Part shown: positions 2,459 through 39,439 of the stretch, piece by piece
How the letters are laid out: every line of letters begins with the position of its first letter
Numbering within the stretch: the first letter of the stretch is position 1
Virus record (IMG/VR): IMGVR_UViG_3300045988_130116
Length of the DNA stretch: 64,000 nt
Source of the DNA: a virus
Reading direction: 5' to 3' (one strand)
Program-made: the position numbers and the translations under genes
Notes under the pieces: generated by a model
What the model saw: the letters and a program-made list of their open reading frames with translations, nothing else
Database searches by the model: none
Told to the model about the DNA's origin: nothing

Positions 2459-2487
2459 ATTATATCATATTTTAATATTGTTGTCAA
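2459..2487 (-). promoter_or_regulatory. cassette promoter TTGACA-17-TATAAT
   Basis: Minus strand ACTTGACAACAATATTAAAATATGATATAAT; drives 2050..2433. Confidence 0.75.
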
Positions 2488-2538
2488 GTATTTTTTTTGA
2501 TTTTTATTATTTACATTTTTTTAGATATTTTAATCCCG

Positions 2539-2919
2539 TTAATCTATTTCTCTCCAAATTATTTTTTCTAAAGAATAAGTTTTATCATCATTAAATTTAC
2601 AACATTCACAATCAATTTCTTCTTTCATACAGAAACATTGTATATCACAACAATCTATTCCATTTTCTACTATATCTTTTAAAGTTTTATTTGTTATGCT
2701 CCAAAATCCCTCACACAATCTTATTTCTACCAATTTTTCATTAGTATTAATAATACACATATCGTTGTCATGGATTTTTCCAAAAGCCATAGGACAGTCT
2801 TCACAGTCTATGCAAAAACCTTCACATAAAATATCCTCGCAGCATATAAATCCTTTTTCAAATTGATATTTTTTTGGTACTATAGGGATTAATTTTTCAT
2901 TTATTTCAATCTTTCTCAT
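2539..2919 (-). CDS. Cys-rich hypothetical protein (tandem paralog 2)
   Basis: 126-aa ORF; AGGAGAA SD; paralog of 2050..2433. Confidence 0.6.
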   Translation of the reverse strand: MRKIEINEKLIPIVPKKYQFEKGFICCEDILCEGFCIDCEDCPMAFGKIHDNDMCIINTNEKLVEIRLCEGFWSITNKTLKDIVENGIDCCDIQCFCMKEEIDCECCKFNDDKTYSLEKIIWREID

Positions 2920-2940
2920 ATTATTTTCTCCTTTCTTTAT

Positions 2941-2968
2941 TAAAAAGGGTAGATATTTCTACCTACCC
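2941..2968 (-). terminator. possible intrinsic terminator after ERF gene
   Basis: Minus strand GGTAGAAATATCTACC followed by CTTTTTAAT. Confidence 0.4.
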
Positions 2969-2977
2969 AATTAATTA

Positions 2978-3562
2978 TTATAAGCTTCTTCTTGATGATT
3001 TTGGTTTAGTAACAGGTTTTGTTTCCTCTTCCTCTACTATTAAATCACTCGCATCGGTATCATCTTCGCTAAATGATAATCCTAATAATGAAGTTATTTG
3101 ATATCTTTTTAAATATGTCATTAATGACCCATAACCCTGTGCTTCTAATTTAGGGGGTATTAAAGATATTGAATTACTCTCTATAAATTGCCCTGTTTCA
3201 ACATGAATTAATCTAGTTTTAATACATATAGAATTTTCTTTTGTTCCACTTATAGGAAATTGCACTAAAATTAATCCTTGGTCATTTAAAATAGGTCTAG
3301 TTACATTTAATATTTGAGATAAACTAGCATAACTAGATTCGTGAAAAGGATTCTCTGCATCTTTTTCTACTGTTGTAAAATGCTTATGAAATCCTGCCAA
3401 AGCCTTATATAACTCTGTGGTATTATCACTAGAATAAAATTGAACATCTGAATTACCTATTTGTTTATTAACATTGAATTTACATTTACACTCCATATTT
3501 GCCTCCTTTAAAGGGTGAGGGATTTCCTCACCTAATATTTTCTCATTAATTACATTTTCCAT
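2978..3562 (-). CDS. erf: ERF-family single-strand annealing recombinase
   Basis: 194 aa with FHESSYASLSQILNVTRPILNDQGLILVQ ... GSLMTYLKRYQITSLLGLSFSEDDTD, which matches the ERF core pattern. Confidence 0.75.
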   Translation of the reverse strand: MENVINEKILGEEIPHPLKEANMECKCKFNVNKQIGNSDVQFYSSDNTTELYKALAGFHKHFTTVEKDAENPFHESSYASLSQILNVTRPILNDQGLILVQFPISGTKENSICIKTRLIHVETGQFIESNSISLIPPKLEAQGYGSLMTYLKRYQITSLLGLSFSEDDTDASDLIVEEEETKPVTKPKSSRRSL

Positions 3563-3582
3563 GTTTATCTACTCCTTTCAAA

Positions 3583-4587
3583 TTAAAATGGCACTTCGTC
3601 TTCGGCTACTTCTACTTCTTCGCCTTCTACTTCTTCGCCTTTTTCTTTTTTAATATCGTCTACTTTTTCTTGAAGTTTTTCAATTCTTTCATCTATTGCT
3701 TGGTGCATCAATTCTATATAATGAGAAGTGAATGGGAAGTCCTCTTGACTAGGAACAGTATAGCAAAATTCTTCTTCTTCTCCTTCTTCAAGGTCGTCAT
3801 ATACTGGTTTTATATATTCATTATTGTCGTCTAAAGTCATAATTGGAGCAGAACAATTAGTTAATTCAAAATAAGTTTCAATTTGAACCCTATTTTTAAC
3901 TGATTTACCTATACCTCTGCTTTTCTTAGCTTTAGCTACAGATTTAATAAAATCAAATTCTATATAAAGTATGTCTCCTACTTTAAGTTCTTCTTTAATA
4001 TATTCGGCATATTCTTCATTGTGAGTTCTTATTTTCATTATAAATCCATTTACTTTATCTTCTTTTTCTTCCTCATTATAATAAGCATAATTATTAACCA
4101 ATACATTTAGTTCTAAAGCATTACCATCAATATCAGTTACATCTTCATAACCTTCAAGCATACAATAAATCATACCTTTAGAGCCTTTAGTAATAGGGAA
4201 TTTACTATCTTCTTGAGTGGTACAGAATACTCCCCCTACTCTAGTTCCTCTGTCAACAAGCTCTCCTTCTTTAGTAACATATTTATTTTCGTCAAATTTA
4301 ACTAAACAGTTAACTATTTCTCCTTCTCCGTCATCTTCAACTGTTCTACACTCTGAATAAAGTTTTTTCATTTTAGCATATGTTTTATTTGTATTTCCAT
4401 TACCAGAGTATTTCCTAATAAAGAAATCAACATCAGTTGACTTCCCTTCTTCTGTTTCAACTTCCATAACAAATCTAATGGCTTCATCTTTTTTACCTTT
4501 ATTAGTTATTGCTCCGTTTTTAATTGCTAAAACTTCACCATTTACATATCCTTCGGAATATCTCACTCTTTTCTCTTTATCTGCCAT
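3583..4587 (-). CDS. single-stranded DNA-binding protein (phage type) with acidic C-terminal tip
   Basis: 334 aa; C-terminus EEVEGEEVEVAEDEVPF resembles the SSB D-D-D-I-P-F tip; immediately upstream of ERF; cassette promoter 4619..4647. Confidence 0.55.
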   Translation of the reverse strand: MADKEKRVRYSEGYVNGEVLAIKNGAITNKGKKDEAIRFVMEVETEEGKSTDVDFFIRKYSGNGNTNKTYAKMKKLYSECRTVEDDGEGEIVNCLVKFDENKYVTKEGELVDRGTRVGGVFCTTQEDSKFPITKGSKGMIYCMLEGYEDVTDIDGNALELNVLVNNYAYYNEEEKEDKVNGFIMKIRTHNEEYAEYIKEELKVGDILYIEFDFIKSVAKAKKSRGIGKSVKNRVQIETYFELTNCSAPIMTLDDNNEYIKPVYDDLEEGEEEEFCYTVPSQEDFPFTSHYIELMHQAIDERIEKLQEKVDDIKKEKGEEVEGEEVEVAEDEVPF

Positions 4588-4618
4588 ATTATCATTCTCC
4601 TTTCATATTTACATTTTA

Positions 4619-4647
4619 ATTATATCATATTTTAATAATGTTGTCAA
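4619..4647 (-). promoter_or_regulatory. cassette promoter TTGACA-17-TATAAT
   Basis: TTGACA 4647..4642, TGn-TATAAT 4624..4619; drives 3583..4587. Confidence 0.75.
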
Positions 4648-4650
4648 GTA

Positions 4651-5061
4651 CTATTCACAAGATTTTTCAATTTCTTTTTCTATTATCTTTTTAGCCATTC
4701 TTAATTTACAAAGTTTATACCCTTTATTAACATCAAAAGTGTCACTAGGGTGGACTTTTGAGGACACTTTACCATAAGTAGGAGACTCCATCACCACCAT
4801 TTCTCTGTTATATCTCCACTTAACAGGGACTTTTTTATTGGCTATATTAATTACATCTGTTCTCCAATCTGTCCAAGCTATTGTGAACAGTTTATCTACC
4901 ATATCTCTATCTACTAACATAAGTTCTATAGAATTCCCCTTTTTTAAGGCTAATTCATACCCACTACAATGATTAAGCGTTTCTACCATTTTGAAATCAT
5001 ATAATACATATGTTTCTTTAGTAATAACATTTACTAATTTATCACCATGTTTAAATTTCAT
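4651..5061 (-). CDS. hypothetical protein
   Basis: 136-aa ORF; own cassette promoter 5095..5123. Confidence 0.6.
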   Translation of the reverse strand: MKFKHGDKLVNVITKETYVLYDFKMVETLNHCSGYELALKKGNSIELMLVDRDMVDKLFTIAWTDWRTDVINIANKKVPVKWRYNREMVVMESPTYGKVSSKVHPSDTFDVNKGYKLCKLRMAKKIIEKEIEKSCE

Positions 5062-5094: not shown

Positions 5095-5123
5095 ATTATA
5101 CCATATTTTAATAATGTTGTCAA
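5095..5123 (-). promoter_or_regulatory. cassette promoter TTGACA-17-TATAAT
   Basis: Drives 4651..5061. Confidence 0.75.
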
Positions 5124-5125: not shown

Positions 5126-6274
5126 CTATTTAAATAAGTTTTTAAAAATATTTTCTAATACCGGAACGGCAATACTATTACCTATTTGTTTATATAATTG
5201 GGTGTCAGAGGTTGGTACATTTTTGGCTTTATAAAAATCATCATCTTCAAATCCCATTAGTCTCCAACATTCAAGTGGAGTTAATCTTCTGATTTTAAAG
5301 TTAGTAACAACTTCTCCATCTATTACCAAAGGTTGTCTCCACCCTCCTTGCATAGTGTCTAAAGTAGGAGATATAAATTCTTTATCATAAATACTTCCTG
5401 CTTGATGTCTTCTATCACCCTCATCAAATACCCCACCTAATCTAACTGGAGAAACTTCTATAATCTGTTTAGGTTGCTTATAATCTCTCGCAGAAAGAGT
5501 TGAGATACATTTATTGGGATTATATACCCAAGCAGAGGTACAATTGCGATATTTAACATTACCATTTTCATCGCATGGGTGTAGAGCAGTTGTCCCTAAA
5601 ACCTCTAAGCATTCATTATTTAATCTATCTTGAGGGAATTTAAAAAATCTATCTTGCATTTCTTGAGATAAATAATATTTGTCTTCAACTGAATCTTCTA
5701 ATATATCTTTAAGTTTTAATTCTAATGGAAATCCTTGAGGAAATTCAAAAGTATGCTCATCATCTAATATGCTAACAACATAAATACGTTCTCTATTTTG
5801 AGGTAACCCAAAATCTTTTGCATTTAATATCTTATAATAAGAAGTATATCCAACTTCTTTTAAATCTTCTATATATTGATTAAAATTATGTATATGTTTT
5901 TTACTTATTACGTTTTTAACATTTTCCCAAACAACATATTTGGGTTTAACTTTTTTAATTATATCTACACTGTACCACATAAGACTACTTTGTGTTCCAC
6001 TCCCTTTATCTCCTCCTTTACCTTTACCAGCCACAGAGAAGCTAGTGCAAGGTGACCCATGTACGATAATATCAATATTTTAAGGTAATAACTCTACATC
6101 TATTGAACTTACATCACCTAAATTTAAATTCTCACCTACTCCATGTATTGCACAGTAACTTTTAATTGCAAATTTATCTATCTCACTAAATCCAACTAAA
6201 TCATAATCCACATTAGCATTTTTAAGTGCTTTTTCAAATGCACCTATCCCACTAAAAAGACTAAGTAATTTCAT
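5126..6274 (-). pseudogene. DNA (cytosine-5)-methyltransferase interrupted by one in-frame TAA (6080..6082)
   Basis: Motif I LFSGIGAFE lies in the 6080..6304 ORF (likely start ATG 6274, AGGAG SD). Reading the same frame across the TAA gives NIDIIVHGSPCTSFSVAG (motif IV). Downstream motifs are ENVKN, QNRERIY and GNSIAVPV. Confidence 0.8.
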
Positions 6275-6300
6275 AACATCACTCCTTTTTAATAGTGTTG

Positions 6301-7527
6301 TCAAGGGGACAATCCCCTCGACAAGTTATTTAAAATTTCTTCTATATTTTCATAATTATAATACCAAATTTCCAACAATTCGATATTATTATCTTTTGCA
6401 TATTTTTTCTTTCTTCTATCATGCTCTTTTTGTATTTCAAAATCTAACTTTGATTGATGAAACCCTTTTATAAATTTCTCATGTTGTTTCCCTTGATATT
6501 CTATTAATAAATTATATTGAGGCAAATAAAAATCATAAGAAAGATTTCCATTTCCTATTCCTGTTAAATATTTAAAAGTTTTTTGCGATACAAATTCTAT
6601 ATTATTATCTGTTAAATATTTATTAATTTTTTGTTCTCCTTTGCTAGAAGTACAATTTCTACATTTCATAGAACGGTTCTTTGATACTACAGTCTCTAAA
6701 GCTGTTTCAAATTCCTCTCCACAATCTTCGCAATAAAATCTAAATTTTTTCCTACTTTTAGGGGCAACTTCAAAAGGAGATTTTGTATTAGATTTACTCC
6801 AGTATTTAGCTTTTTGAGGATATAAATAACCAAATGAATCTTTTGGGTGAATTTTTGCCTTATGACAATAAGAACATCTTTTACCACTATGAAATTTATC
6901 ACAACTAATTCTATATCCTCCGCTGTCATTATGATATTTTTTATTCTGACATAGTATCCATATCTTCTTCATACTTCTAGGAGCTAACTCCCAAGGGTTT
7001 AAAGTGTTTTTAGGACTCCAATACTTAGTTAAAAAATCTTCTCCAAATGTATTTATGCCCCATTGAGCAAAGGAATCTTTAGGATGTACTTTCATTTTAT
7101 GACAATAAGAACATCTTTTACCACTATGAAAATGATTACAACTAACCTTATAACTCCCATGATAATCTTTTTTATCACATTTAATCCAAACCTTAATATT
7201 TTTACTTTTACTTATTAAATAAGGATTAACAACATTCTTTTCCCAATCCCAATATTTATTTAAAGGTTCTTTTAACTCTTGTTGAATATAGTATGCAAAA
7301 CTATTTTCATATTTATTACAACAATTTGAACAGTTTGCTCCTTTCTTAAAAGTAGCTTTATCTATATCGTATTCTTTTCCACAATATAAACATTTTACTC
7401 TAATATATATAGATTTTTTATTTTTATTTCTATTATCTAATGTTACTTCATTTCGATTATAACTTCCTATATATTTATATTCTTTTCTATTTATTAATTC
7501 TTCTTCGTGTTTTTTATTATAATACAT
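6301..7527 (-). CDS. homing-endonuclease-like protein: 3 zinc-ribbon repeats plus C-terminal Vsr/DUF559-like nuclease motif
   Basis: 408 aa; paralog of 1056..2039 with one extra repeat; C-terminus SYDFYLPQYNLLIEYQGKQH; abuts the C5-MTase gene. Confidence 0.6.
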   Translation of the reverse strand: MYYNKKHEEELINRKEYKYIGSYNRNEVTLDNRNKNKKSIYIRVKCLYCGKEYDIDKATFKKGANCSNCCNKYENSFAYYIQQELKEPLNKYWDWEKNVVNPYLISKSKNIKVWIKCDKKDYHGSYKVSCNHFHSGKRCSYCHKMKVHPKDSFAQWGINTFGEDFLTKYWSPKNTLNPWELAPRSMKKIWILCQNKKYHNDSGGYRISCDKFHSGKRCSYCHKAKIHPKDSFGYLYPQKAKYWSKSNTKSPFEVAPKSRKKFRFYCEDCGEEFETALETVVSKNRSMKCRNCTSSKGEQKINKYLTDNNIEFVSQKTFKYLTGIGNGNLSYDFYLPQYNLLIEYQGKQHEKFIKGFHQSKLDFEIQKEHDRRKKKYAKDNNIELLEIWYYNYENIEEILNNLSRGLSP

Positions 7528-8682: not shown

Positions 8683-8711
8683 ATTATATCATAAACTCAT
8701 ATTGTTGTCAA
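8683..8711 (-). promoter_or_regulatory. cassette promoter TTGACA-17-TATAAT
   Basis: Drives 8092..8649. Confidence 0.75.
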
Positions 8712-9448: not shown

Positions 9449-9477
9449 ATTATACTACTTTCTAATAGTATTGTCAA
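9449..9477 (-). promoter_or_regulatory. cassette promoter TTGACA-17-TATAAT
   Basis: Drives 8900..9427; no TG extension in this copy. Confidence 0.7.
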
Positions 9478-11889: not shown

Positions 11890-11918
11890 ATAATATCACA
11901 TTTTAATAATGTTGTCAA
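11890..11918 (-). promoter_or_regulatory. cassette promoter TTGACA-17-TATTAT
   Basis: Drives 11450..11812 and downstream genes. Confidence 0.7.
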
Positions 11919-14692: not shown

Positions 14693-14721
14693 ATTATATC
14701 ATATTTTAATATTGTTGTCAA
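14693..14721 (-). promoter_or_regulatory. cassette promoter TTGACA-17-TATAAT
   Basis: Drives 14334..14669 through thyX. Confidence 0.75.
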
Positions 14722-15365: not shown

Positions 15366-15394
15366 ATTATATCATAAATTAATAATATTATCAA
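15366..15394 (-). promoter_or_regulatory. cassette promoter TTGATA-17-TATAAT
   Basis: -35 variant TTGATA; drives 14863..15342. Confidence 0.65.
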
Positions 15395-17798: not shown

Positions 17799-17827
17799 AT
17801 TATATCATATTATCAAATTGTTGTCAA
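17799..17827 (-). promoter_or_regulatory. cassette promoter TTGACA-17-TATAAT
   Basis: Drives 17620..17772. Confidence 0.75.
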
Positions 17828-18325: not shown

Positions 18326-18354
18326 ATTATATCACATTATCAAAGTGTTGTCAA
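18326..18354 (-). promoter_or_regulatory. cassette promoter TTGACA-17-TATAAT
   Basis: Drives NADAR gene 17813..18301; overlaps the last codons of the sigma gene (..NTLIM*). Confidence 0.75.
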
Positions 18355-19073: not shown

Positions 19074-19102
19074 ATTATATCATATTTTAATATTGTTGTC
19101 AA
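19074..19102 (-). promoter_or_regulatory. cassette promoter TTGACA-17-TATAAT
   Basis: Drives sigma gene 18332..19045. Confidence 0.75.
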
Positions 19103-19958: not shown

Positions 19959-19987
19959 ATTATACTGAATTTTAAAAATATTGTCAA
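19959..19987 (-). promoter_or_regulatory. cassette promoter TTGACA-17-TATAAT
   Basis: Drives 19616..19885; leader carries alternative hairpins 19901..19954. Confidence 0.75.
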
Positions 19988-20815: not shown

Positions 20816-21736
20816 TTAATTATATTTATTCTTATATAATAATAGTGTATCCATAGAAAATGCACTAATATTATGTTTTCGCTTAAAATCTCTAATAGTA
20901 GAGTTATTCCATATTGTATTATTAGCTATTGTTTCTTCGTGCATCTTGTATATAACTCCCCCTATATATAACTTTTGTGGCTTTAATAATACGTCATATT
21001 CTGCTAATGAATCATTTAAATTAGCAATTCTAGTTCTTAACCCATTAAATGTCATTCTATTTAAACCCATACCATTATTTCTTTGAGGTTTACTTCTTAC
21101 AATATAAGGACTGTTTACATTTAATTTATAAGTTTCATTTGAAGTTCCTTCTATATCCCCTAATTTATAGTAAGAAATTTCTTCGATAGCAGATTGACAA
21201 TATTCTCTTAATATTTCATCCATTTCTATTATCTTATTTCCAACAATTATTTCATTCTTAGAGAAATCAACATCAGTTACTTTGATATTTGTTATATCAT
21301 CAAACCTTTTATCTTTTAACCCATACCAAATTCCATAAACTAGGAATTTATCTTGTGAATTAATAAATTGTTCGCATATAGCAATTATTTCATCTTTAGT
21401 ATAAATACCTTCATTATCTTTTATTATTTTATTAGGTGGTACATTTGAAAACTTTGTAGGTATATTAAGTACATCATTAAATATTTTAGTGAAGTCATTT
21501 ACTCTTATAGTTATACTTTGATAAGAATCTATTCTACCACAATGAATTATCAAAAAGTCGTTTATCTCTTCTAATGTTGCCCTAGTTATATTTTCCCCCT
21601 CGTTTACTACAAGTTTACCTTGTTCTGATAAGTAACTTATTAATCTTCTGTAATTAGCCCTAACACCTATTTTTGATGCTTCGTTCCAATTCTCTGTTGC
21701 CTTCTCTATTGTCTCATAATTTTTTAAGTTTAACAT
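20816..21736 (-). CDS. hypothetical protein (weak resemblance to tyrosine-recombinase N-terminal/core-binding region; catalytic residues not recognised)
   Basis: 306-aa ORF; cassette promoter 21790..21818; SD separated from ATG by hairpin 21745..21765. Confidence 0.55.
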   Translation of the reverse strand: MLNLKNYETIEKATENWNEASKIGVRANYRRLISYLSEQGKLVVNEGENITRATLEEINDFLIIHCGRIDSYQSITIRVNDFTKIFNDVLNIPTKFSNVPPNKIIKDNEGIYTKDEIIAICEQFINSQDKFLVYGIWYGLKDKRFDDITNIKVTDVDFSKNEIIVGNKIIEMDEILREYCQSAIEEISYYKLGDIEGTSNETYKLNVNSPYIVRSKPQRNNGMGLNRMTFNGLRTRIANLNDSLAEYDVLLKPQKLYIGGVIYKMHEETIANNTIWNNSTIRDFKRKHNISAFSMDTLLLYKNKYN

Positions 21737-21789: not shown

Positions 21790-21818
21790 ATTATATCATA
21801 AACTCATATTGTTGTCAA
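21790..21818 (-). promoter_or_regulatory. cassette promoter TTGACA-17-TATAAT
   Basis: Drives 20816..21736. Confidence 0.75.
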
Positions 21819-22853: not shown

Positions 22854-22868
22854 AATTAACACCCTCTC

Positions 22869-23978: not shown

Positions 23979-24007
23979 ATTATATCACATTATCAAAGTG
24001 TTGTCAA
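23979..24007 (-). promoter_or_regulatory. cassette promoter TTGACA-17-TATAAT
   Basis: Drives 23499..23948. Confidence 0.75.
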
Positions 24008-25399: not shown

Positions 25400-25428
25400 T
25401 ATTATATCATATTTTAATAGTGTTGTCA
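25400..25428 (-). promoter_or_regulatory. cassette promoter TTGACA-17-TATAAT
   Basis: Drives 24442..25368. Confidence 0.75.
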
Positions 25429-25477
25429 AGTACTATTTAGAAATATCTTTAATTTTTTTACATTTAAGAAAGACTTC

Positions 25478-27339: not shown

Positions 27340-27368
27340 ATTATACCAAAAATTACTAATGTTGTCAA
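27340..27368 (-). promoter_or_regulatory. cassette promoter TTGACA-17-TATAAT
   Basis: Drives primase gene 25781..27307. Confidence 0.75.
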
Positions 27369-27791: not shown

Positions 27792-27820
27792 ATTATATCA
27801 TATTATCATAATGTTGTCAA
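27792..27820 (-). promoter_or_regulatory. cassette promoter TTGACA-17-TATAAT
   Basis: Drives 27374..27757. Confidence 0.75.
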
Positions 27821-27828: not shown

Positions 27829-27857
27829 ATAAAAAAAATCATGCATTAGGCATGATT
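27829..27857 (-). terminator. intrinsic terminator after amidoligase pair
   Basis: AATCATGC-CTAAT-GCATGATT then TTTTTTTATTTT. Confidence 0.7.
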
Positions 27858-29995: not shown

Positions 29996-30024
29996 ATTAT
30001 ATCACATTATCAAAGTGTTGTCAA
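29996..30024 (-). promoter_or_regulatory. cassette promoter TTGACA-17-TATAAT
   Basis: Drives amidoligase pair 28912..29964 and 27846..28907. Confidence 0.75.
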
Positions 30025-30442: not shown

Positions 30443-30471
30443 TATTATATCATATTATCAAAGCGTTGTCA
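30443..30471 (-). promoter_or_regulatory. cassette promoter TTGACA-17-TATAAT
   Basis: Drives 30050..30421. Confidence 0.75.
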
Positions 30472-30485
30472 AGTGTTTTTAGATT

Positions 30486-30893: not shown

Positions 30894-30922
30894 ATTGTAT
30901 CATATTATTATACTGTTGTCAA
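30894..30922 (-). promoter_or_regulatory. cassette promoter TTGACA-17-TACAAT
   Basis: Drives 30486..30860. Confidence 0.7.
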
Positions 30923-31418: not shown

Positions 31419-31447
31419 ATTATATCATATAATTACATTGTTGTCAA
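31419..31447 (-). promoter_or_regulatory. cassette promoter TTGACA-17-TATAAT
   Basis: Drives 30942..31400 with an unusually short leader. Confidence 0.7.
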
Positions 31448-32387: not shown

Positions 32388-32388
32388 A

Positions 32389-33068: not shown

Positions 33069-33097
33069 ATTGTATCATATTATCAGACTGTTGTCAA
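33069..33097 (-). promoter_or_regulatory. cassette promoter TTGACA-17-TACAAT
   Basis: Drives 32736..33035, 32389..32739 and the integrase. Confidence 0.7.
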
Positions 33098-34283: not shown

Positions 34284-34312
34284 TATTATATCATAAAATA
34301 ATAGTGTTGTCA
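34284..34312 (-). promoter_or_regulatory. cassette promoter TTGACA-17-TATAAT
   Basis: Drives 33920..34249 and downstream. Confidence 0.75.
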
Positions 34313-34317
34313 AGTGT

Positions 34318-34350
34318 TTTTAGAAAATAGCTAAGAGATTTTCTTAGCTA
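34318..34350 (-). terminator. possible intrinsic terminator after 34348..34668
   Basis: 10-bp stem ATAGCTAAGA/TCTTAGCTAT then TTTTCTAAAAA. Confidence 0.5.
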
Positions 34351-34701: not shown

Positions 34702-34730
34702 ATTGTATCACACTTTAACAATGTTGTCAA
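34702..34730 (-). promoter_or_regulatory. cassette promoter TTGACA-17-TACAAT
   Basis: Drives 34348..34668. Confidence 0.7.
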
Positions 34731-35127: not shown

Positions 35128-35156
35128 ATTATATCATATTATAAGACTATTGTCAA
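35128..35156 (-). promoter_or_regulatory. cassette promoter TTGACA-17-TATAAT
   Basis: Drives 34738..35064. Confidence 0.75.
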
Positions 35157-35975
35157 CTATTTTTGAAAAAAATCTAATATTTTTTGTGAAGTTTTATTTA
35201 TAATATCTAAAGAATCTTTTAACTCTTTAAGTTCTTTGCCTCTGCTCCAACTTGCAACATAACCAAAGCTATAATCGTCTGTATTAAGTCCTAACCCTCT
35301 GCAAACTATATAAGCTATACTTTCTGCTTGAACTTCTTTAGTTCTTCTATCAATCCCATCATCAAGGTTACAATGTAATATACTATGTGCTAATTCATGG
35401 ATAATTGTTTTTAGTTTGTGAATATCGTCTAAAGATTCTTTTATATGAATATCGTTCATAAGAACATCGTAATATCCATTAGTAGAACCTTCATTTAGGC
35501 TTTTATCTATTGTTATAGCAACCTCTGTATTATTTAAAGCATAATTGATTAGGGATTTAATCTCATCACTATTCTCTTTTAATTCTGTTGCTAAAGAAGG
35601 TTTATCTCCTTCAACTTGAGTGATATCAAATACATTTCCTAATTTAAAGTATAAATGATTTTTTACCACTTCTTCTCCGTCTTCTTCTACTATTGTATTA
35701 TATTTAACTGGGCAAAGTATCTTTAAGGCTTTAGCACCCTTCTTAATCTTAAACCCTAGTCTATTCCAAGTTGTAAAACTAGCAACTTGACCTGCATTAG
35801 GATTTTGTAGCATTATTAAAATTATATTTCCATAACTGTAATTATGGAATTTGCTACAGAAGTCTAGGTATTCTTGATATTTACCACTTTCAAATACCTC
35901 TTTAACTCCACTTTCTAAATCTTGCATGAATTTATTAACCTCTTGTTTCTTTTGTCCTGTTTTTTTATATCTCAT
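35157..35975 (-). CDS. ArdC-like protein (ssDNA-binding N-domain plus HExxH zincin)
   Basis: 272 aa; YSYGNIILIMLQNPNAGQVASFTTWNRLGFKIKKGAKALKI; IIHELAHSILH. Confidence 0.65.
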   Translation of the reverse strand: MRYKKTGQKKQEVNKFMQDLESGVKEVFESGKYQEYLDFCSKFHNYSYGNIILIMLQNPNAGQVASFTTWNRLGFKIKKGAKALKILCPVKYNTIVEEDGEEVVKNHLYFKLGNVFDITQVEGDKPSLATELKENSDEIKSLINYALNNTEVAITIDKSLNEGSTNGYYDVLMNDIHIKESLDDIHKLKTIIHELAHSILHCNLDDGIDRRTKEVQAESIAYIVCRGLGLNTDDYSFGYVASWSRGKELKELKDSLDIINKTSQKILDFFQK

Positions 35976-36008: not shown

Positions 36009-36037
36009 ATTATATCATATTATAAGGTTGTTGTCAA
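36009..36037 (-). promoter_or_regulatory. cassette promoter TTGACA-17-TATAAT
   Basis: Drives ArdC-like gene 35157..35975. Confidence 0.75.
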
Positions 36038-36046: not shown

Positions 36047-36086
36047 GAAAAAAAATAAAAAAATATAGTGGAATAAATCCACTATA
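36047..36086 (-). terminator. intrinsic terminator after 36082..36345
   Basis: TATAGTGG-ATTTATT-CCACTATA then TTTTTTTATTTTTTTT. Confidence 0.7.
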
Positions 36087-36345
36087 CACTTAACTCTTTT
36101 ATTTTATTCTCTATTATCTGTTCTATAGGAAGACTATTATTTTTACTTATAATTGTTAATTCTATTCCTTCATTTACTACAGGTTTATTATCTATATAAG
36201 GTATAACGTATGCTTCATCATCTAAACATAAAACATATTTTATATCCTCTGACCCAAACTCTAGCCCTGTATAAAATATATCATACATGGTTATAATTTC
36301 TTCTCTTATCACTTCGTCTTTTAGCAGTTTTATATATTTATCCAT
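36082..36345 (-). CDS. hypothetical protein
   Basis: 87-aa ORF; terminator overlaps its stop codon. Confidence 0.5.
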   Translation of the reverse strand: MDKYIKLLKDEVIREEIITMYDIFYTGLEFGSEDIKYVLCLDDEAYVIPYIDNKPVVNEGIELTIISKNNSLPIEQIIENKIKELSV

Positions 36346-36601
36346 TCTTATTCACCCCTCTTACCGTTTTTAAAGCAATACTCTCTTCATTGTCTATATC
36401 TATACCTTCTGATTTTAGAACGTCTTTAACAAGGTTCGTGCCGTTTCTAAACTTATAATCCTCAAATAAGACTTCTGCATCAACTCCTGTTATTATTCCC
36501 AGATCATTTATCATATCGTATATTAGGTTATGTAGGAACATAAGATGTTCTTGCATAGATAATTCATTCGGGAATATTATTTCCTCTTTGCACCTTATCA
36601 T
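36338..36601 (-). CDS. hypothetical protein
   Basis: 87-aa ORF; AAAGGAGGT SD lies inside upstream mini-ORF 36603..36668. Confidence 0.5.
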   Translation of the reverse strand: MIRCKEEIIFPNELSMQEHLMFLHNLIYDMINDLGIITGVDAEVLFEDYKFRNGTNLVKDVLKSEGIDIDNEESIALKTVRGVNKNG

Positions 36602-36684: not shown

Positions 36685-36713
36685 ATTTTATCACACTTTA
36701 AGGTTGTTGTCAA
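36685..36713 (-). promoter_or_regulatory. cassette-type promoter TTGACA-17-TAAAAT
   Basis: TG extension present (TGTGATAAAAT); drives mini-ORF 36603..36668 and 36338..36601. Confidence 0.6.
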
Positions 36714-36715: not shown

Positions 36716-37303
36716 CTAAAGTGTTATTATTCTTCCAGTTGCTACTTCTTTAGCAACTAAGTTAGCAGTTCTATGACAAGTAGGACGATATCTTAAAAGT
36801 AAACTCTTGTTTAGTCTATTTCTCTTAGCTACCACCTTACCACATTCGCTACATATTATATGGTATTTATAAACTGGAGCAACAGGTACATTAACTACGC
36901 TATTATTAATAGCAACGACTGGATTAGCTTCTCTGTATTTCTTCATATAGTCTGTAGTTTTAGTTCTGTTATCTCTTACTCCATACATTCTACAAAATCT
37001 CTTCCAAGTATCATTGTGTCCTACTGGTTTTCCGCAGTATATATTTGCTAATACATGAATTACTTCATGATGAATAGTATCTATAACATCGCTTTTTTCT
37101 CCGTATTCAAGATACTTTTTATTGAACGTAAACTTTACAGGCTTCCCGTTAGCATTTAGATAACTAACTTGCCCCAAAGTTCTAGTCATTCTGGAAGATA
37201 TATTTATAGGAGTATTTTTTATATACTCTAAAATCAAGTCTCTATGTTCTTCTTTCATGCTATTTACAAAATCCACCATTTCTTTTCTTATCATTTCTAC
37301 CAT
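36716..37303 (-). CDS. SprT-like zinc metalloprotease with C-terminal zinc ribbon
   Basis: VIDTIHHEVIHVLANIY...GHNDTWKRFC; CSECGK...CH. ATG 37303 after GAGGGGG preferred; track start is 37321. Confidence 0.65.
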   Translation of the reverse strand: MVEMIRKEMVDFVNSMKEEHRDLILEYIKNTPINISSRMTRTLGQVSYLNANGKPVKFTFNKKYLEYGEKSDVIDTIHHEVIHVLANIYCGKPVGHNDTWKRFCRMYGVRDNRTKTTDYMKKYREANPVVAINNSVVNVPVAPVYKYHIICSECGKVVAKRNRLNKSLLLRYRPTCHRTANLVAKEVATGRIITL

Positions 37304-37337: not shown

Positions 37338-37366
37338 ATTATATCACATTATCAAAATGTTGTCAA
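37338..37366 (-). promoter_or_regulatory. cassette promoter TTGACA-17-TATAAT
   Basis: Drives SprT-like gene. Confidence 0.75.
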
Positions 37367-37419
37367 GTATTTTTTTTAATTTTTTTTGAGAATTTTTAAG
37401 ATAACCTTCGAGTCTTTTG

Positions 37420-37611
37420 TTAAAATTCTAATTTATCATTTAACCACAATTTGTAGTTTTTTACTGTAGCTAGTTTATAAGCCTCTTCCATCATTCCATC
37501 TACATCATCACCTTCTTCATCTTCATGTCTTATAAAAACTTCTTGAATTAAAAAGTCCATAAATTCCTCAAAGTCTGGTTGGCTTTGTAAGTTTTTCTTT
37601 GTTATTTTCAT
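37420..37611 (-). CDS. small acidic hypothetical protein
   Basis: 63-aa ORF; cassette promoter 37644..37672. Confidence 0.5.
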   Translation of the reverse strand: MKITKKNLQSQPDFEEFMDFLIQEVFIRHEDEEGDDVDGMMEEAYKLATVKNYKLWLNDKLEF

Positions 37612-37643: not shown

Positions 37644-37672
37644 ATTATATCATATATTAATAACATTGTCAA
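37644..37672 (-). promoter_or_regulatory. cassette promoter TTGACA-17-TATAAT
   Basis: Drives 37420..37611. Confidence 0.75.
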
Positions 37673-37972: not shown

Positions 37973-38025
37973 CTCGATACCTGTAATTTACCGTCTCCGT
38001 TCTCTCTTGTAGTTATACTTATAAT

Positions 38026-39036
38026 CTACCATATTTTATACACCTTTTCACCAGTCATAGTAAGTCTTCTTTCATCATAGTTAACTCTGTATAACCAACA
38101 ATCGTTATCAATAACGTATTTATCTTGATAAGTGTAAAGATACATACCGCTTACTAATTCGACAAACTCATCAGTTAATGGAGTTTTATCTGCTAAAGCC
38201 TCTATGAAGTCTAATTTATCCATACGTTTATTTTCTACAAAGAAAGCTTGGAAATAGTCTTCAAAGTTATCAAAATAAAGTGCAGGGTCATCAACTATAT
38301 CGTCATAAGAAGGTGATAAATCTTTTTTTACTTTTTCAGCAGATTTATAATTAAATTTTACATATTTTTTTGTGTTTGTGTCCCAATAATATCCGTAGTC
38401 ATCATCCCATTCATGGTCATAACTATAAGGATTAGAAAAACTTTTATTATAGTAATATTTATCCCAACTTCTAGGTTCATAAGAATCGTTAGAGAATATC
38501 CAACCTTCTTCTTTTTCTATGAAGTCTCCATATAATTCTATTTCTCCATTAGATTTAAGAATACAGAATTTACCGTTGCCCTTCATTTCTTTAGCTAAAA
38601 CATCTTTATTATTAAGTCTCCATAAGCTAAATACATCATCTAATATAAATCTTTGTGTGTCACTCATTTTTTCTTCCCAAGCATATTTACCTATAATACC
38701 ATTGTGAACGATACCTGATCCACAATTTATTTCAGTTTTTCTTAATTTTTTCAATTTGTTAGTTATTGGGAATGGATGGCAAGTTTCCTTACTTATTCCA
38801 CCACTTGTTGAAATTCTAAAGTGCATTACTAAATTCTTTTCTTCAAGATGTTTATTATCCCAAAGTTCTTCTAGTCTTTCAATATATTTGTCTACATCAA
38901 AGAACCCTTTTTCTATGTGAACCTTATTATTGTCCACAAACATGAATCCTGCTCCGTCAGAATTATGAAGGAAACAGTTTTTTACATACTCTTCATTTAA
39001 TTTATACCCTTTTTCTTTTACAGCTATTATACACAT
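38026..39036 (-). CDS. class II (Ntn) glutamine amidotransferase-like protein
   Basis: 336 aa starting MCIIAV (Cys2 nucleophile); NSDGAGFMF, HFRISTSGG..CHPF, IVHNGII; cassette promoter 39080..39108. Confidence 0.7.
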   Translation of the reverse strand: MCIIAVKEKGYKLNEEYVKNCFLHNSDGAGFMFVDNNKVHIEKGFFDVDKYIERLEELWDNKHLEEKNLVMHFRISTSGGISKETCHPFPITNKLKKLRKTEINCGSGIVHNGIIGKYAWEEKMSDTQRFILDDVFSLWRLNNKDVLAKEMKGNGKFCILKSNGEIELYGDFIEKEEGWIFSNDSYEPRSWDKYYYNKSFSNPYSYDHEWDDDYGYYWDTNTKKYVKFNYKSAEKVKKDLSPSYDDIVDDPALYFDNFEDYFQAFFVENKRMDKLDFIEALADKTPLTDEFVELVSGMYLYTYQDKYVIDNDCWLYRVNYDERRLTMTGEKVYKIW

Positions 39037-39079
39037 TCCACATCACTCCTTTTAATATCTCATTTCTTACTATACTTAT

Positions 39080-39108
39080 ATTATATCATAAATTAATACT
39101 GTTGTCAA
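39080..39108 (-). promoter_or_regulatory. cassette promoter TTGACA-17-TATAAT
   Basis: Drives GATase-like gene 38026..39036. Confidence 0.75.
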
Positions 39109-39149
39109 GTGTTTTTTGATTTTTTTTAAAACTTTTTTATTTTTTTTTA

Positions 39150-39177
39150 TTGACTTATAAATATAATATAGTATAAT
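39150..39177 (+). promoter_or_regulatory. plus-strand promoter TTGACT-16-TATAAT preceded by T-tracts
   Basis: TTGACT 39150..39155, TATAAT 39172..39177. Divergent from 39080..39108 and convergent with 39411..39439. Confidence 0.5.
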
Positions 39178-39183
39178 AATATA

Positions 39184-39308
39184 TGTAGTAAATAACAAGT
39201 GTGCTTAATGTTTCACTTAAAGATAAAATTAATATTCCTTAAATTATATATTAAATTAATGTTACACTTGTTATTTATTTATTCTATTTATTATTGTTTA
39301 TTTTTTTT
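39184..39308 (+). ncRNA. candidate small RNA (promoter, long hairpin, T-run)
   Basis: 14-bp stem 39189..39202 / 39264..39277 (TAAATAACAAGTGT / ACACTTGTTATTTA), followed by a T-rich tail ending in T8 at 39301..39308. No ORF. Confidence 0.3.
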
Positions 39309-39321
39309 GCATTATTTTTAC

Positions 39322-39397
39322 ATAAAGTCGAAGGATTTTTTGAGTCCTCCCCTCTTTGTGCAAAATAAAGTCGAAGGATTTTTAGGGTCTTACCCCC
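39322..39397. repeat. tandem direct repeat (2 units of about 33 nt)
   Basis: ATAAAGTCGAAGGATTTTTTGAGTCCTCCCCTC at 39322..39353 and ATAAAGTCGAAGGATTTTTAGGGTCTTACCCCC at 39365..39397. Confidence 0.8.
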
Positions 39398-39410
39398 TAT
39401 TCATACTTAT

Positions 39411-39439
39411 ATTGTATCATAAATTAATAGTGTTGTCAA
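39411..39439 (-). promoter_or_regulatory. orphan cassette promoter TTGACA-17-TACAAT (no ORF downstream)
   Basis: Full cassette, but the leader runs into the tandem repeats at 39322..39397 and I found no SD/ORF. Confidence 0.6.

What the first reader, a model, noticed from the sequence alone, without database searches (positions are those of the whole stretch)
2459..39439. 31 copies of a near-invariant consensus promoter plus leader cassette arming individual early genes
On the minus strand I located 31 copies of one cassette.

Cassette structure:
- an A-rich upstream tract
- ACTTGACAAC, giving the -35 TTGACA (30/31 exact; one copy is TTGATA)
- a spacer of exactly 17 nt in every copy, ending in TG-N in most copies (extended -10)
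- TATAAT (25/31 exact; the others are 4x TACAAT, 1x TATTAT, 1x TAAAAT)
- a conserved leader (ATAAGTATAATAAGAAA-like)
- a strong GGAG-type SD and the start codon

Each cassette precedes a single gene or a very short operon. Several cassettes overlap the last codons of the upstream gene, for example ..HLTTL* at 23993 and ..NTLIM* at 18332.

Repeated strong early promoters are known in large virulent Firmicutes phages. Even so, the copy number, the fixed spacer and the conserved leader suggest a portable expression module that may also act as recombination homology for shuffling accessory genes. The rightward (late) genes lack it entirely.
Basis: partly seen in the sequence, partly recalled or inferred. 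Interest (0 to 1): 0.7.

Follow-up and report, generated by a model that had tools for sequence, protein, structure and literature searches.

The report
Repeated early promoter cassettes in phage
An uncultivated large phage related to Bacillus SPbeta and C. difficile phiCD211 places 31 near-identical copies of a textbook host-type promoter plus ribosome-binding leader in front of its early genes; this is a larger version of a known design and probably also serves as the binding site of the phage's master repressor.

Summary
There are 31 minus-strand copies of TTGACA-N17-TATAAT (at most 1 mismatch; 2.4 expected by chance) between 2459 and 39439, and none on the plus strand. Each sits in a conserved core of about 50 bp, followed by a short unstructured leader, an SD and a start codon.

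Substitutions between orthologous copies in related phages spare exactly the positions a housekeeping sigma factor reads: the -35, the TG, T-12/A-11/T-7 and +1. They are therefore host sigma-A-type early promoters.

The phage is not a virulent SPO1-like phage. Its terminase is 53% identical to phiCD211 and 35% to SPbeta. Directly behind cassette 21818 it encodes a 306-aa member of the MrpR/YopR/SroF family, the SPbeta master repressor. In SPbeta, MrpR binds SPBRE, a repeated element that I show is a sigma-A-like promoter with a conserved spacer.

The cassette is best read as an expanded SPBRE-like promoter/operator. Repressor binding is inferred, not shown.

Recombination at cassettes does occur: there is one clean cassette-to-cassette gene indel and two SD-to-SD indels. 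However, indels are no more frequent at cassette junctions than at other gene junctions, and gene order is collinear.

Verdict: new member of a known kind; moderate interest.

The parts
2459..2487 (-). cassette promoter core (-35 to -10); drives 2050-2433 (127 aa) and downstream genes
4619..4647 (-). cassette; drives 3583-4587 (334 aa; its syntenic counterpart in L112 carries PF27337 YorF), ERF 2978-3562 and 2539-2919
5095..5123 (-). cassette; drives 4651-5061 (136 aa)
8683..8711 (-). cassette; drives 8092-8649 and an operon reaching the C5 methylase genes
9449..9477 (-). cassette (no TG); drives 8900-9427 (175 aa)
11890..11918 (-). cassette (TATTAT); 71-nt structured leader; drives 11450-11812 and 5 more genes
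14693..14721 (-). cassette; drives 14334-14669 and an operon that includes ThyX 12728-13480
15366..15394 (-). cassette (TTGATA -35); drives 14863-15342
17799..17827 (-). cassette; drives 17620-17772 and an operon that includes sigma factor 15957-16640
18326..18354 (-). cassette overlapping the stop of the upstream sigma-factor gene (NTLIM*); drives the NADAR-domain gene 17813-18301
19074..19102 (-). cassette; drives sigma-factor gene 18332-19045
19959..19987 (-). cassette (no TG); 67-nt structured leader; drives 19616-19885
21790..21818 (-). cassette; leader with a hairpin and a 10-codon mini-ORF; drives the MrpR/SroF-like gene
20816..21736 (-). MrpR/YopR/SroF-family protein (306 aa), the candidate master repressor that reads the cassettes
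23979..24007 (-). cassette overlapping the upstream stop (KHLTTL*); drives 23499-23948, HNH 22869-23474 and the nucleotidyltransferase 21855-22862
25401..25429 (-). cassette; drives 24442-25368 (308 aa)
27340..27368 (-). cassette; drives 25781-27307 (508 aa; PriCT-1 plus winged-helix, replication-initiator-like)
27792..27820 (-). cassette preceded by a terminator hairpin at 27857-27837; drives 27374-27757
29996..30024 (-). cassette; drives amidoligase-like genes 28912-29964 and 27846-28907
30444..30472 (-). cassette; drives 30050-30421
30894..30922 (-). cassette (TACAAT); drives 30486-30860
31419..31447 (-). cassette; drives 30942-31400 (DUF4379 zinc-finger protein)
33069..33097 (-). cassette (TACAAT); drives 32736-33035, 32389-32739 and the Xer-like tyrosine recombinase 31449-32408
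34285..34313 (-). cassette; drives 33920-34249 and two further genes
34702..34730 (-). cassette (TACAAT); drives 34348-34668
35128..35156 (-). cassette; 57-nt structured leader; drives 34738-35064
36009..36037 (-). cassette preceded by a terminator hairpin at 36087-36063; drives the ArdC-N/M78 gene 35157-35975
36685..36713 (-). cassette (TAAAAT); drives a 21-codon mini-ORF, then 36338-36601 and 36082-36345
37338..37366 (-). cassette; drives the SprT-like gene 36716-37303
37644..37672 (-). cassette; drives 37420-37611 (63 aa). This gene plus one cassette is missing in relatives 128445 and 138989 (cassette-to-cassette indel)
39080..39108 (-). cassette; drives 38026-39036 (336 aa)
39411..39439 (-). 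cassette (TACAAT) with no ORF downstream; faces about 300 nt of noncoding sequence
39883..39911 (-). separate promoter-like site (TTGACT-17-TGtTATAAT) with unrelated flanks; not a member of the cassette family

Best explanation
Each cassette is a complete expression module of about 90 bp, read by the host housekeeping (sigma-A/sigma-70-type) RNA polymerase immediately after infection or induction.

Its parts, in order, are:
- an A-tract (a proximal UP-element-like sequence);
- TTGACA, then a 17-nt spacer ending in TRTGn (the -16 region plus extended -10), then TATAAT;
- an AT-rich discriminator with a T(-1)A(+1) start;
- a 12-29-nt unstructured purine-rich leader;
- a GGAG-type SD and the start codon.

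Thirty-one co-directional copies with few terminators between them give every early gene or short operon its own strong start. Among their products are the first phage sigma factors, which would then take over transcription of cassette-free genes.

The phage belongs to the SPbeta/phiCD211 group. Behind one cassette it encodes an MrpR/YopR/SroF-family protein: a catalytically degenerate tyrosine-recombinase fold that, in SPbeta and phi3T, binds as a monomer to a long asymmetric box repeated at early promoters. I therefore infer that the conserved asymmetric sequence around the -35 and in the spacer (GACAACAnTnTTAAAATATGATAT-like) is also the operator through which this repressor silences all the promoters in the lysogenic or plasmid state. 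On this reading the cassette is an expanded, consensus-strength equivalent of SPBRE.

Recombination between cassettes, or between their SD/leader parts, occasionally adds or removes gene-plus-cassette units. This is a side effect, not their main role.

Status of each step:
- Shown: the anatomy, the non-randomness, the promoter-type constraint, the presence of the repressor family, and examples of unit indels.
- Inferred: transcription by host sigma-A, repressor binding, and a temperate lifestyle.
For: Promoter:
- 31 copies against 2.4 expected, all on the coding strand; position-specific conservation.
- In 98 orthologous copies in relatives that are 90-99% identical, the -35 shows 3/588 substitutions and the -10 shows 10/594, against about 6.9% in the upstream flank.
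- In relatives that are 77% identical, T-12 and A-11 are unchanged and T-7 differs once (1/22); the TG is largely kept (T 0/21, G 3/21) and +1 is unchanged. Spacer positions 9-13 change at 43% and the flank at 25%.
- Leaders are unstructured: 25 of 30 are 12-29 nt with MFE near 0.
- A sigma-factor gene lies directly behind cassette 19102, and there are four sigma-factor genes in all.

SPbeta-like context:
- TerL is 53% identical to phiCD211 and 35% to SPbeta-like phages.
- A YorF-family neighbour is present in L112.
- phiCD211-type phages are large extrachromosomal temperate phages (PMC5786514).
- Ant/anti-repressor genes are present in relatives.

Repressor (window 20816-21736):
- All 8 homologue clusters carry the precomputed family PF22823 MrpR_C_cat.
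- phmmer finds phi3T SroF, E=0.005.
- BLASTP against YopR is collinear, E=0.009; hhalign gives E=0.001.
- The seven best Foldseek PDB hits are all SroF, YopR or MrpR, E=1.6e-5 to 1.1e-4.
- GLK replaces the GLR arginine and there is no HxxR box (my reading of the sequence).

Precedent:
- MrpR binds SPBRE at 10 early promoters (PMC10516654).
- SroF reads 24 of 26 bp as a monomer at many sites across the genome (bioRxiv 10.1101/2025.11.27.690993).
- My alignment of the 10 SPbeta sites shows that SPBRE is TAGACA-AATACAAAAAATATGTA-TATAAT, that is, a sigma-A-like promoter whose spacer is the conserved part.

Spacer constraint:
- A relative whose repressor is only 62.5% identical (L112) still has ACAnnnTTAAAATATGA in most of its 13 cassettes.
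- Unrelated phage arrays (L051, L088, L081) keep only TTGACAA, TG and TATAAT, with free spacers.
Against: - There is no experimental TSS or binding data.
- The spacer is not strongly constrained between orthologues: positions 9, 11-13, 15, 17 and 22 vary at or above the neutral rate. Orthologous spacers in the window and L112 differ at about 8/17 positions. An operator would therefore have to tolerate much variation or rely mainly on the -35-proximal ACA and the TTAAAATATGA half.
- The cassette and SPBRE share only an AAAATATG stretch, offset by 1 nt.
- phiCD211, which has a homologue of the repressor at 28% identity, shows no such cassette family in the 37.5 kb examined.
- Sequence-level homology to MrpR is weak (E of 1e-2 to 1e-3), and the structural model has a mean pLDDT of only 68.
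- No integrase/att, arbitrium or Sar gene was identified in the window, so a temperate lifestyle is inferred only.
- Spacer similarity within a genome could be kept by gene conversion alone.
Confidence: 0.55

Rival explanations
1. The cassettes are plain strong sigma-A early promoters and nothing more. Conservation outside the hexamers reflects common descent by duplication, AT-rich spacer preferences of the host polymerase, and gene conversion between copies. The MrpR-like protein acts elsewhere or is unrelated to them.
For: - The orthologue substitution pattern is exactly that of a sigma-70-type promoter, and the middle of the spacer is hypervariable.
- Identical spacer sub-families (3+3+2 identical 29-mers) point to duplication or conversion.
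- Unrelated phage contigs carry similar dense arrays, for example 20 in 5.7 kb in L051, so strong promoter arrays arise without any specific operator.
Against: - The same spacer half, TTAAAATATGA, and the ACA after the -35 persist in a lineage whose proteins are only about 62% identical. Unrelated arrays have free spacers.
- An MrpR/SroF-family gene sits behind a cassette.
- In SPbeta the equivalent repeated promoter element is the proven repressor site.
Confidence: 0.33
2. The cassettes are PeSL-like mobile regulatory cassettes, whose main evolutionary role is to provide homology for inserting, deleting and exchanging accessory genes.
For: - Window 37380-37610 (a 63-aa gene plus one cassette) is absent from contigs 128445 and 138989. 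These carry a single chimeric cassette with the upstream flank of cassette 37672 and the leader of cassette 37366.
- Indels at 2.9 kb and 5.06 kb add or remove a small ORF, with or without a cassette, between duplicated SD/leader sequences.
- 28 of 31 cassettes carry stops in all three frames, so they can follow any ORF.
- The PeSL precedent includes the same topology (PMC2839356).
Against: - Of about 25 distinct indel or replacement events, about 11 involve no cassette junction.
- Single-site insertions fall at cassette junctions in about 5 of 12 cases, and cassette junctions make up about 42% of junctions, so there is no enrichment.
- Gene order is collinear in all relatives.
- Other agents explain many differences: TnpB-type insertions, an intein-like insertion and DUF4379 genes.
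- Only about 4-5 cassettes have the adjacent stem-loop that defines PeSLs.
Confidence: 0.15
3. The cassettes are promoters for one of the four phage-encoded sigma factors rather than for the host sigma-A.
For: Four sigma-factor genes lie in the window.
Against: - The motif is the exact housekeeping consensus with a 17-nt spacer, TG and an A-tract.
- A cassette drives a sigma-factor gene itself (19102 to 18332-19045), so at least that copy must fire before the factor exists.
- The genes lacking cassettes (40-64 kb) are the natural targets of the phage sigma factors.
Confidence: 0.05
4. The copies are a MITE-like transposable element that spread through the genome.
For: Many near-identical short copies are present.
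Against: - There are no terminal inverted repeats.
- All copies are in one orientation and precisely placed 12-29 nt (in most cases) upstream of start codons.
- No presence/absence polymorphism of a bare cassette with target-site duplication was found among about 25 indels; the cassettes travel with genes.
Confidence: 0.02

Closest known systems
SPBRE (SPbeta repeated element) with its repressor MrpR/YopR/SroF in Bacillus phages SPbeta and phi3T
   Same: - It is a repeated, asymmetric element at the promoters of many early operons of a large phage of about 130 kb.
- It coincides with a sigma-A-like promoter: TAGACA-17-TATAAT with an ATATG before the -10.
- The phage encodes an MrpR/SroF-family protein with a tyrosine-recombinase fold.
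- The terminase and a YorF-like gene are related.
   Different: - There are 31 or more copies in 37 kb, against 10 in 134 kb.
- Here the hexamers are perfect and the spacer is only partly conserved. In SPBRE the spacer is the invariant part and the -35 is degenerate.
- Sequences share only AAAATATG, offset by 1 nt.
- The cassette also includes a conserved leader and RBS.
- Late transcription here appears to use phage sigma factors. No YonO-type polymerase was seen, although only this window was examined.
- Repressor binding is untested here.
PeSLs (promoter-early stem-loops) of T4-type phages RB49 and phi1 (Arbiol et al. 2010, PMC2839356)
   Same: - They are repeated strong sigma-70-type early promoters with an AT-rich upstream region, an SD and a start codon, lying between small accessory ORFs.
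- An ORF flanked by two elements in one phage is replaced by a single chimeric element in a relative (compared with their Fig. 3).
   Different: - There is no integral stem-loop terminator; only about 4-5 of 31 have one nearby.
- The host type is Gram-positive-like and the phage lineage is different.
- No enrichment of breakpoints at cassettes was detected.
- Mini-circles were not tested.
Early promoters of the host-takeover module of Bacillus phage SPO1, and the early promoters of T5 and T7 (named from my own knowledge)
   Same: They are clusters of near-consensus host-sigma promoters with strong RBSs in front of many small early genes, followed by a cascade of phage-encoded sigma factors.
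   Different: - Those phages are virulent and unrelated.
- Their promoters do not share a conserved spacer or leader of this extent.
- No MrpR-type repressor is involved.
Morons of lambdoid phages (Hendrix and colleagues; named from my own knowledge and from the discussion in PMC2839356)
   Same: They are single accessory genes carrying their own promoter, inserted between neighbouring genes.
   Different: - Morons are heterogeneous units, each with its own promoter and terminator.
- Here one promoter family serves all units, and most units lack terminators.

Membership tests
Housekeeping sigma-70/sigma-A promoter, extended -10 class | -35 TTGACA and -10 TATAAT hexamers separated by 17 +/- 1 nt | tested here: met
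   24 copies match 12/12 and 7 match 11/12. All have a 17-nt spacer.
Housekeeping sigma-70/sigma-A promoter, extended -10 class | TGn immediately upstream of the -10 (TRTG -16 region of Gram-positive promoters) | tested here: met
   G in 29/31 and T in 30/31, with a purine before it (A21/G8).
Housekeeping sigma-70/sigma-A promoter, extended -10 class | Evolutionary constraint concentrated on the -35, T-12, A-11 and T-7 | tested here: met
   T-12 and A-11 are unchanged (0/22 each) and T-7 differs once (1/22) in the 77%-identical relatives. The flank changes at about 25% and the mid-spacer at 43%.
Housekeeping sigma-70/sigma-A promoter, extended -10 class | Transcription initiates 6-8 nt downstream of the -10 with host holoenzyme | not testable with these tools
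   This needs dRNA-seq, 5'-RACE or in vitro transcription. The sequence offers a conserved T(-1)A(+1) at the expected place.
SPBRE / MrpR(SroF) promoter-operator system of SPbeta-like phages | The phage encodes an MrpR/YopR/SroF-family protein (tyrosine-recombinase fold, catalytically degenerate) | tested here: met
   Window 20816-21736:
- PF22823 is recorded on all its homologues.
- SroF is found by phmmer, E=0.005.
- The top 7 Foldseek hits are SroF, YopR or MrpR.
- GLK replaces GLR and there is no HxxR box.
Sequence-level scores are weak.
SPBRE / MrpR(SroF) promoter-operator system of SPbeta-like phages | A long asymmetric element repeated at many early promoters across the genome | tested here: met
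   31 copies with a conserved core of about 50 bp and no dyad symmetry.
SPBRE / MrpR(SroF) promoter-operator system of SPbeta-like phages | The element overlaps the -35/-10 spacer of a sigma-A-type promoter | tested here: met
   One search shows this for SPBRE. In the window, spacer positions 6-8, 10, 14, 16 and 18-21 are conserved within the genome. The TTAAAATATGA half is kept in the divergent relative L112.
SPBRE / MrpR(SroF) promoter-operator system of SPbeta-like phages | Sequence similarity of the element to SPBRE or Phi3TRE | tested here: not met
   One search compared: only AAAATATG is shared, offset by 1 nt. Homology of the elements themselves is therefore not shown.
SPBRE / MrpR(SroF) promoter-operator system of SPbeta-like phages | The repressor binds the element and represses the promoters in lysogeny | not testable with these tools
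   This needs EMSA, ChAP-seq or reporter assays.
PeSL (T4-type promoter-early stem-loop cassettes) | Strong sigma-70-like early promoter with an AT-rich upstream region, an SD and a start codon | tested here: met
PeSL (T4-type promoter-early stem-loop cassettes) | An integral stem-loop (terminator/attenuator) within or next to the promoter | tested here: not met
   minus-strand terminator-like hairpins lie directly upstream of only two cassettes (27820 and 36037). By eye, weaker hairpins precede 33097 and 34313.
PeSL (T4-type promoter-early stem-loop cassettes) | Indels between close relatives are bounded by two elements, leaving a chimeric element | tested here: inconclusive
   There is one clean case (37380-37610) and two SD-to-SD cases. 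There is no enrichment over other gene junctions.
MITE | Terminal inverted repeats and target-site duplications; bare-element presence/absence polymorphism | tested here: not met
   there are no TIRs, the orientation and distance to start codons are fixed, and no bare-cassette indel was found.

The most novel reading that the evidence does not exclude
The cassette array is a genome-wide promoter-operator grid. More than 30 consensus-strength host promoters are each switched off by one monomer of an MrpR/SroF-type repressor in a plasmid-like prophage of an uncultivated gut bacterium. The same cassettes also act as docking sites at which units of accessory gene plus cassette are captured and lost. 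The result would be an integron-like gene-capture platform built from a repressor-controlled promoter. This would extend the SPbeta/arbitrium-type repressor beyond Bacillus phages and would explain how a temperate phage can afford dozens of maximal-strength promoters.
Probability: 0.3. Interest if true: 0.6.

Novelty: new member of a known kind. Interest (0 to 1): 0.4.

Why it matters
If the operator inference holds, the MrpR/SroF way of silencing a prophage is not a Bacillus curiosity. In that scheme, a monomeric recombinase-fold repressor reads a long box embedded in many early promoters. It would then operate in a wide group of large phages of about 130-140 kb, related to phiCD211 and found in low-GC anaerobes, with the number of controlled promoters tripled.

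The array has practical uses:
- It is a natural library of 31 graded variants of a maximal sigma-A promoter plus leader for low-GC Gram-positive hosts.
- It marks the early (anti-defence, takeover) gene set of an uncultivated phage lineage.
- The set of close relatives (90-99% identical, mosaic) makes a good system for measuring how often regulatory repeats mediate gene gain and loss.

Tried and rejected
1. Megablast of 8 kb of the array against 50,697 phage records gave no match, so the phage is not a sequenced isolate.
2. Rfam at gathering thresholds found only three tRNAs and no known leader RNA.
3. I first took the tyrosine recombinase at 31449-32408 as the MrpR candidate and rejected it. 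It aligns to XerC/XerD/XerA with the RHR and Y motifs present and has no similarity to YopR.
4. The local Pfam copy (PF22823.1) does not hit the 306-aa protein even at E=10. The family assignment therefore rests on the precomputed PF22823.3 hits of its homologues plus structure and PDB evidence.
5. phiCD211 was examined for a comparable cassette. It has 10 promoter-like sites in 37.5 kb but no conserved family.
6. A test for enrichment of indel breakpoints at cassettes found none relative to gene junctions.
7. A search for operator-like spacers outside promoters found none.
8. The MITE reading was rejected.
9. A test for compensatory changes in the hairpin of the repressor-gene leader showed that the hairpin is kept in L112 but has no double-sided covariation.
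10. The pattern scan of genome contigs mostly returned single chance or host promoters. Only one 'Candidatus Melainabacteria' MAG holds the phage, so the host remains unknown.

Full report
**1. Observation**

A search for TTGACA-N17-TATAAT with at most 1 mismatch finds 35 sites, all on the minus strand. Dinucleotide-preserving shuffles give 2.4 +/- 1.5.

- Three sites are an 11-bp-offset reading inside three cassettes.
- One site (39883-39911) has unrelated flanks.

A position matrix gives the conserved core: AAAAAcAC-TTGACA-ACAnTaTtAnAATaTGA-TATAAT-ATAArTATAataA. Mean pairwise identity is 75% in this 50-nt core and 34-35% in the 50 nt on either side. Spacers are 71% identical, against 31% for random 17-mers.

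The median distance from the -10 to the start codon is 32.5 nt. Five cassettes overlap the end of the upstream ORF. In 28 of 31 there are stop codons in all three frames. Fourteen cassettes serve one gene and the rest serve 2-6 genes. No copy lies on the plus strand or among the minus-strand genes at 40-52 kb.

**2. What the sequence says they are**

Every element of an ideal Gram-positive housekeeping promoter is present:
- an A-tract abutting the -35;
- TTGACA, a 17-nt spacer, a TRTG -16 region / extended -10, and TATAAT;
- an AT-rich discriminator, with a conserved T-A step 7 nt after the -10.

Assuming a start at that A, 25 of 30 5'-UTRs are 12-29 nt long and essentially unfolded (MFE about 0). 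They are purine-rich and end in GGAG-type SDs. Five cassettes have long structured leaders or a mini-ORF (11918, 19987, 21818, 35156, 36713).

**3. Evolutionary test**

The window has no close match among sequenced phages. Pattern scans recovered several related uncultivated contigs:
- IMG/VR 3300045988_128445, _157017, _138989 and _135958, at 90-99% identity;
- 3300014039_000019, 3300012344_000015 and contigs binned into a 'Candidatus Melainabacteria' MAG, at about 77% identity.

I projected alignments onto cassette coordinates.

| Region | Close relatives (98 orthologous copies) | 77%-identical relatives |
|---|---|---|
| -35 hexamer | 3/588 substitutions | 6/126 |
| -10 hexamer | 10/594 | 16/132 overall; T-12 and A-11 0/22 each, T-7 1/22 |
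| TG and +1 | not computed separately | T 0/21, G 3/21; +1 0/21 |
| Spacer positions 9-13 | not computed separately | 43% |
| Spacer positions 14-21 | not computed separately | 16% |
| Upstream flank | about 6.9% | about 25% |

The 77% group represents only about 7-8 independent cassettes. This is the signature of recognition by a sigma-70-family factor. It argues against a repeat that is conserved merely because it is young.

**4. Not unique**

The same pattern scan hit phage contigs with no detectable nucleotide similarity to the window that also carry dense arrays. L051 has 20 in 5.7 kb; L088, L081, L083 and L075 carry them too.

These arrays share the A/T-rich upstream tract, TTGACAA, TG, TATAAT and an ATAAGTA-like start region, but their spacers are free. 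Arrays of near-consensus early promoters are therefore a recurrent design in uncultivated phages of such hosts.

**5. What phage this is**

- The large terminase (59536-61308) is 53% identical to C. difficile phiCD211/phiCDIF1296T and 35% to SPbeta-like Bacillus phages.
- phiCD211-type phages are large extrachromosomal temperate siphoviruses (PMC5786514).
- The early region encodes ERF, ThyX, a C5 methylase, ArdC-N/M78, SprT-like, NADAR, amidoligase-like and PriCT/winged-helix proteins, a Xer-like recombinase with intact motifs, and many ORFans.
- Four sigma-factor genes are present: 15957-16640, 18332-19045, 51196-51882 and 52520-53722. One lies directly behind cassette 19102, which is what a host-sigma to phage-sigma cascade would look like.

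**6. The repressor lead**

The 306-aa gene at 20816-21736 lies directly behind cassette 21818. It had no hit in the local Pfam copy but matched a PHROG annotated as integrase. Further evidence:
- All eight homologue clusters (61-97% identical) carry the precomputed family PF22823, MrpR_C_cat. One search confirms that PF22823 is the C-terminal domain of SPbeta YopR.
- phmmer against PDB sequences finds only phi3T SroF, E=0.005.
- BLASTP against YopR is collinear over 195 residues, E=0.009; hhalign gives E=0.001.
- An AlphaFold2 model (pLDDT 68) has as its seven best PDB matches SroF (9rgl, 9rd5), YopR (8bpz, 8bj6) and MrpR (8a0a), with E=1.6e-5 to 1.1e-4. These rank ahead of true recombinases.
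- GLK stands where recombinases have GLR, and there is no HxxR box (my reading). This fits the loss of catalysis described for MrpR.
- Homologues at 28% identity occur in the phiCD211 family and in Brevibacillus phage Sundance.

**7. The precedent**

In SPbeta, ChAP-seq placed MrpR on ten promoter regions that carry SPBRE, the 'SPbeta repeated element', and MrpR represses PaimR and PyosX (PMC10516654). In phi3T, SroF binds as a monomer, reads 24 of 26 bp, and has many sites across the genome (bioRxiv 10.1101/2025.11.27.690993).

I aligned the ten SPbeta regions. SPBRE is TAGACA-AATACAAAAAATATGTA-TATAAT followed by an SD. It is therefore a sigma-A-like promoter whose spacer, rather than its -35, is invariant.

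The window's cassette has the same architecture with the emphasis reversed: perfect hexamers and a partly conserved spacer. The two share only AAAATATG, offset by one base.

**8. Is the spacer functional here?**

For:
- A relative whose MrpR-like protein is only 62.5% identical (L112, ENA ERZ11466742 NODE_35, 137,851 bp) has 13 cassettes in 21 kb with spacer ACAnnnTTAAAATATGA. This is the commonest spacer type in the window.
- The unrelated arrays have free spacers.

Against:
- Orthologous spacers differ at about 8 of 17 positions between the window and L112.
- Mid-spacer positions are hypervariable.
- phiCD211 shows no cassette family.
- There are no operator-like sites away from promoters.

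I rate promoter function at about 0.9. I rate the additional operator role at about 0.45, and the combined statement at 0.55.

**9. Recombination**

Chaining alignments between the window and its relatives gave about 25 distinct indel or replacement events.

One is a textbook cassette-to-cassette event. Window 37380-37610 (a 63-aa gene plus one cassette) is replaced in contigs 128445 and 138989 by a single cassette that has the upstream flank of cassette 37672 and the leader of cassette 37366. Two others (2.9 kb and 5.06 kb) add or remove a small ORF, with or without a cassette, between duplicated SD/leader sequences.

Against a dedicated recombination role:
- About 11 events involve no cassette junction.
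- Single-site insertions fall at cassette junctions in about 5 of 12 cases, and such junctions are about 42% of all junctions.
- Order is collinear throughout.
- Many differences are due to other agents: four TnpB-type insertions, an intein-like insertion and DUF4379 genes.
- Only two cassettes have a scanned terminator hairpin directly upstream, so the defining stem-loop of T4-type PeSLs (PMC2839356) is missing.

The cassettes can serve as recombination homology, but the data do not show that this is frequent or selected.

**10. Verdict**

The feature is real and highly non-random. It is a family of host-sigma early promoter/RBS cassettes in a new, uncultivated relative of SPbeta/phiCD211-type phages. 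It is most plausibly the counterpart of SPBRE, controlled by an MrpR/SroF-family repressor.

The unexpected addition is the link to the SPbeta repressor system. I classify it as a new member of a known kind, with interest 0.4.

Noticed in passing
window 21737-21789 (leader of the MrpR-like gene); L112 9951-10000: The leader behind cassette 21818 is atypical. A strong SD is followed by a GTG-initiated 10-codon mini-ORF whose stop overlaps the ATG of the repressor gene. A GAGGTGG...CCACCTC hairpin lies between the SD and the ATG. A hairpin is kept at the same place in the divergent relative L112, but without double-sided compensatory changes.
   Followed up: partly
relative contig IMG/VR 3300045988_138989: L053 2905-4242 and 5119-6475, L070 2458-3793, L049 2846-4110 (window-equivalent sites 19896/19931, 20806/20816, 23484/23490, 33898/33899): There are four insertions of about 1.3 kb, absent from the window. 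Three encode 372-406-aa proteins that, by my own reading of the sequences, look TnpB/OrfB-like (C-terminal zinc-finger CxxC...CxxC); one holds only a fragment. No family search was run on them. IS200/IS605-type elements may be colonising intergenic sites of this phage lineage.
   Followed up: partly
window 5126-6304 (-); L077 2553-3617: The C5 cytosine methylase is split by an in-frame stop (..ELLP*NIDIIVHGSPCTSFS) just before the catalytic PC motif. At that motif, relative 138989 carries a 1,065-bp insertion encoding a 303-aa protein that looks like an intein or homing endonuclease (it ends ..NGCIAHNC).
   Followed up: partly
window 1056-2039 and 6301-7527 (-): Two paralogous genes for DUF4379 treble-clef zinc-finger proteins (about 78% nucleotide identity over parts) are precisely absent from most close relatives. 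A third, small DUF4379 gene lies at 30942-31400. They behave like free-standing mobile genes.
   Followed up: partly
window 43600-46300: About 2.7 kb has no convincing ORF. It is very AT-rich and has a local reversal of GC skew at 44-46 kb. It contains several repeat families (GAGAATGATTATCG-like; ACTGCGGTCCATGA in 3 copies; TGTATACA-centred palindromes). It is a possible replication origin or partition/regulatory region.
   Followed up: no
window 39105-39404 (-): Cassette 39439 has no ORF behind it. The 300 nt up to the next cassette contain two copies of AAAAATCCTTCGACTTTAT and fold better than shuffles (z = -2.9). This is a possible cassette-driven noncoding RNA, and the region is conserved at 93-99% in relatives.
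   Followed up: partly
window 54225-54292 (+): A third tRNA-like gene was found by Rfam (49 bits) but not by ARAGORN. It lies next to tRNA-Leu(TAA) and tRNA-Thr(TGT).
   Followed up: no
window 15957-16640, 18332-19045, 51196-51882 (-), 52520-53722 (+): There are four sigma-factor genes in 64 kb, including a 400-aa one (phrog_5767) at the head of the rightward genes. This suggests a multi-step transcriptional cascade. The promoters they recognise were not sought.
   Followed up: no
window 41877-41925 and 42587-42635; also 41817-41875 and 42529-42587: A different repeated upstream element of about 110 bp (hairpin TAGGGAAT..ATTCCCTA plus SD region) precedes two paralogous genes (40626-41852, amidoligase-like, and 41926-42564). 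These genes share an N-terminus and lack the cassette.
   Followed up: no
cassettes 18354, 24007, 30024, 37366 and others: Six cassettes have TTGATA in the spacer, placed 17 nt from a second TATAAT that lies 5 nt after the first, giving an overlapping second promoter 11 bp downstream. Thirteen cassettes have an exact second TATAAT at about -1 to +5. This could equally act as a sigma-dependent promoter-proximal pause element.
   Followed up: partly
L009, L027, L107 (contigs CALEJY010000004, _329, _250): The whole related phage (contigs of 81.6, 29 and 25.7 kb) is binned into a 'Candidatus Melainabacteria' MAG (SRR1747039_bin.65). This is either mis-binning of a low-GC phage or a hint that the host is a gut melainabacterium carrying it at about one copy per cell.
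   Followed up: no
L051 (IMG/VR 3300035520_000608), L088 (3300045988_136890), L081, L083, L075: Phage contigs with no detectable nucleotide similarity to the window carry even denser arrays of consensus promoters, up to 20 in 5.7 kb on both strands. Each is followed by an ATAAGTR-like start region and a short ORF.
   Followed up: partly
L111 19142-19605 (phiCD211, just downstream of the gene next to its MrpR-like gene): There are about seven copies of AAATGACCGTATATTCTCCGTACTTAACA-like repeats in 460 bp of phiCD211. They are candidate binding sites or iterons and were not examined.
   Followed up: no
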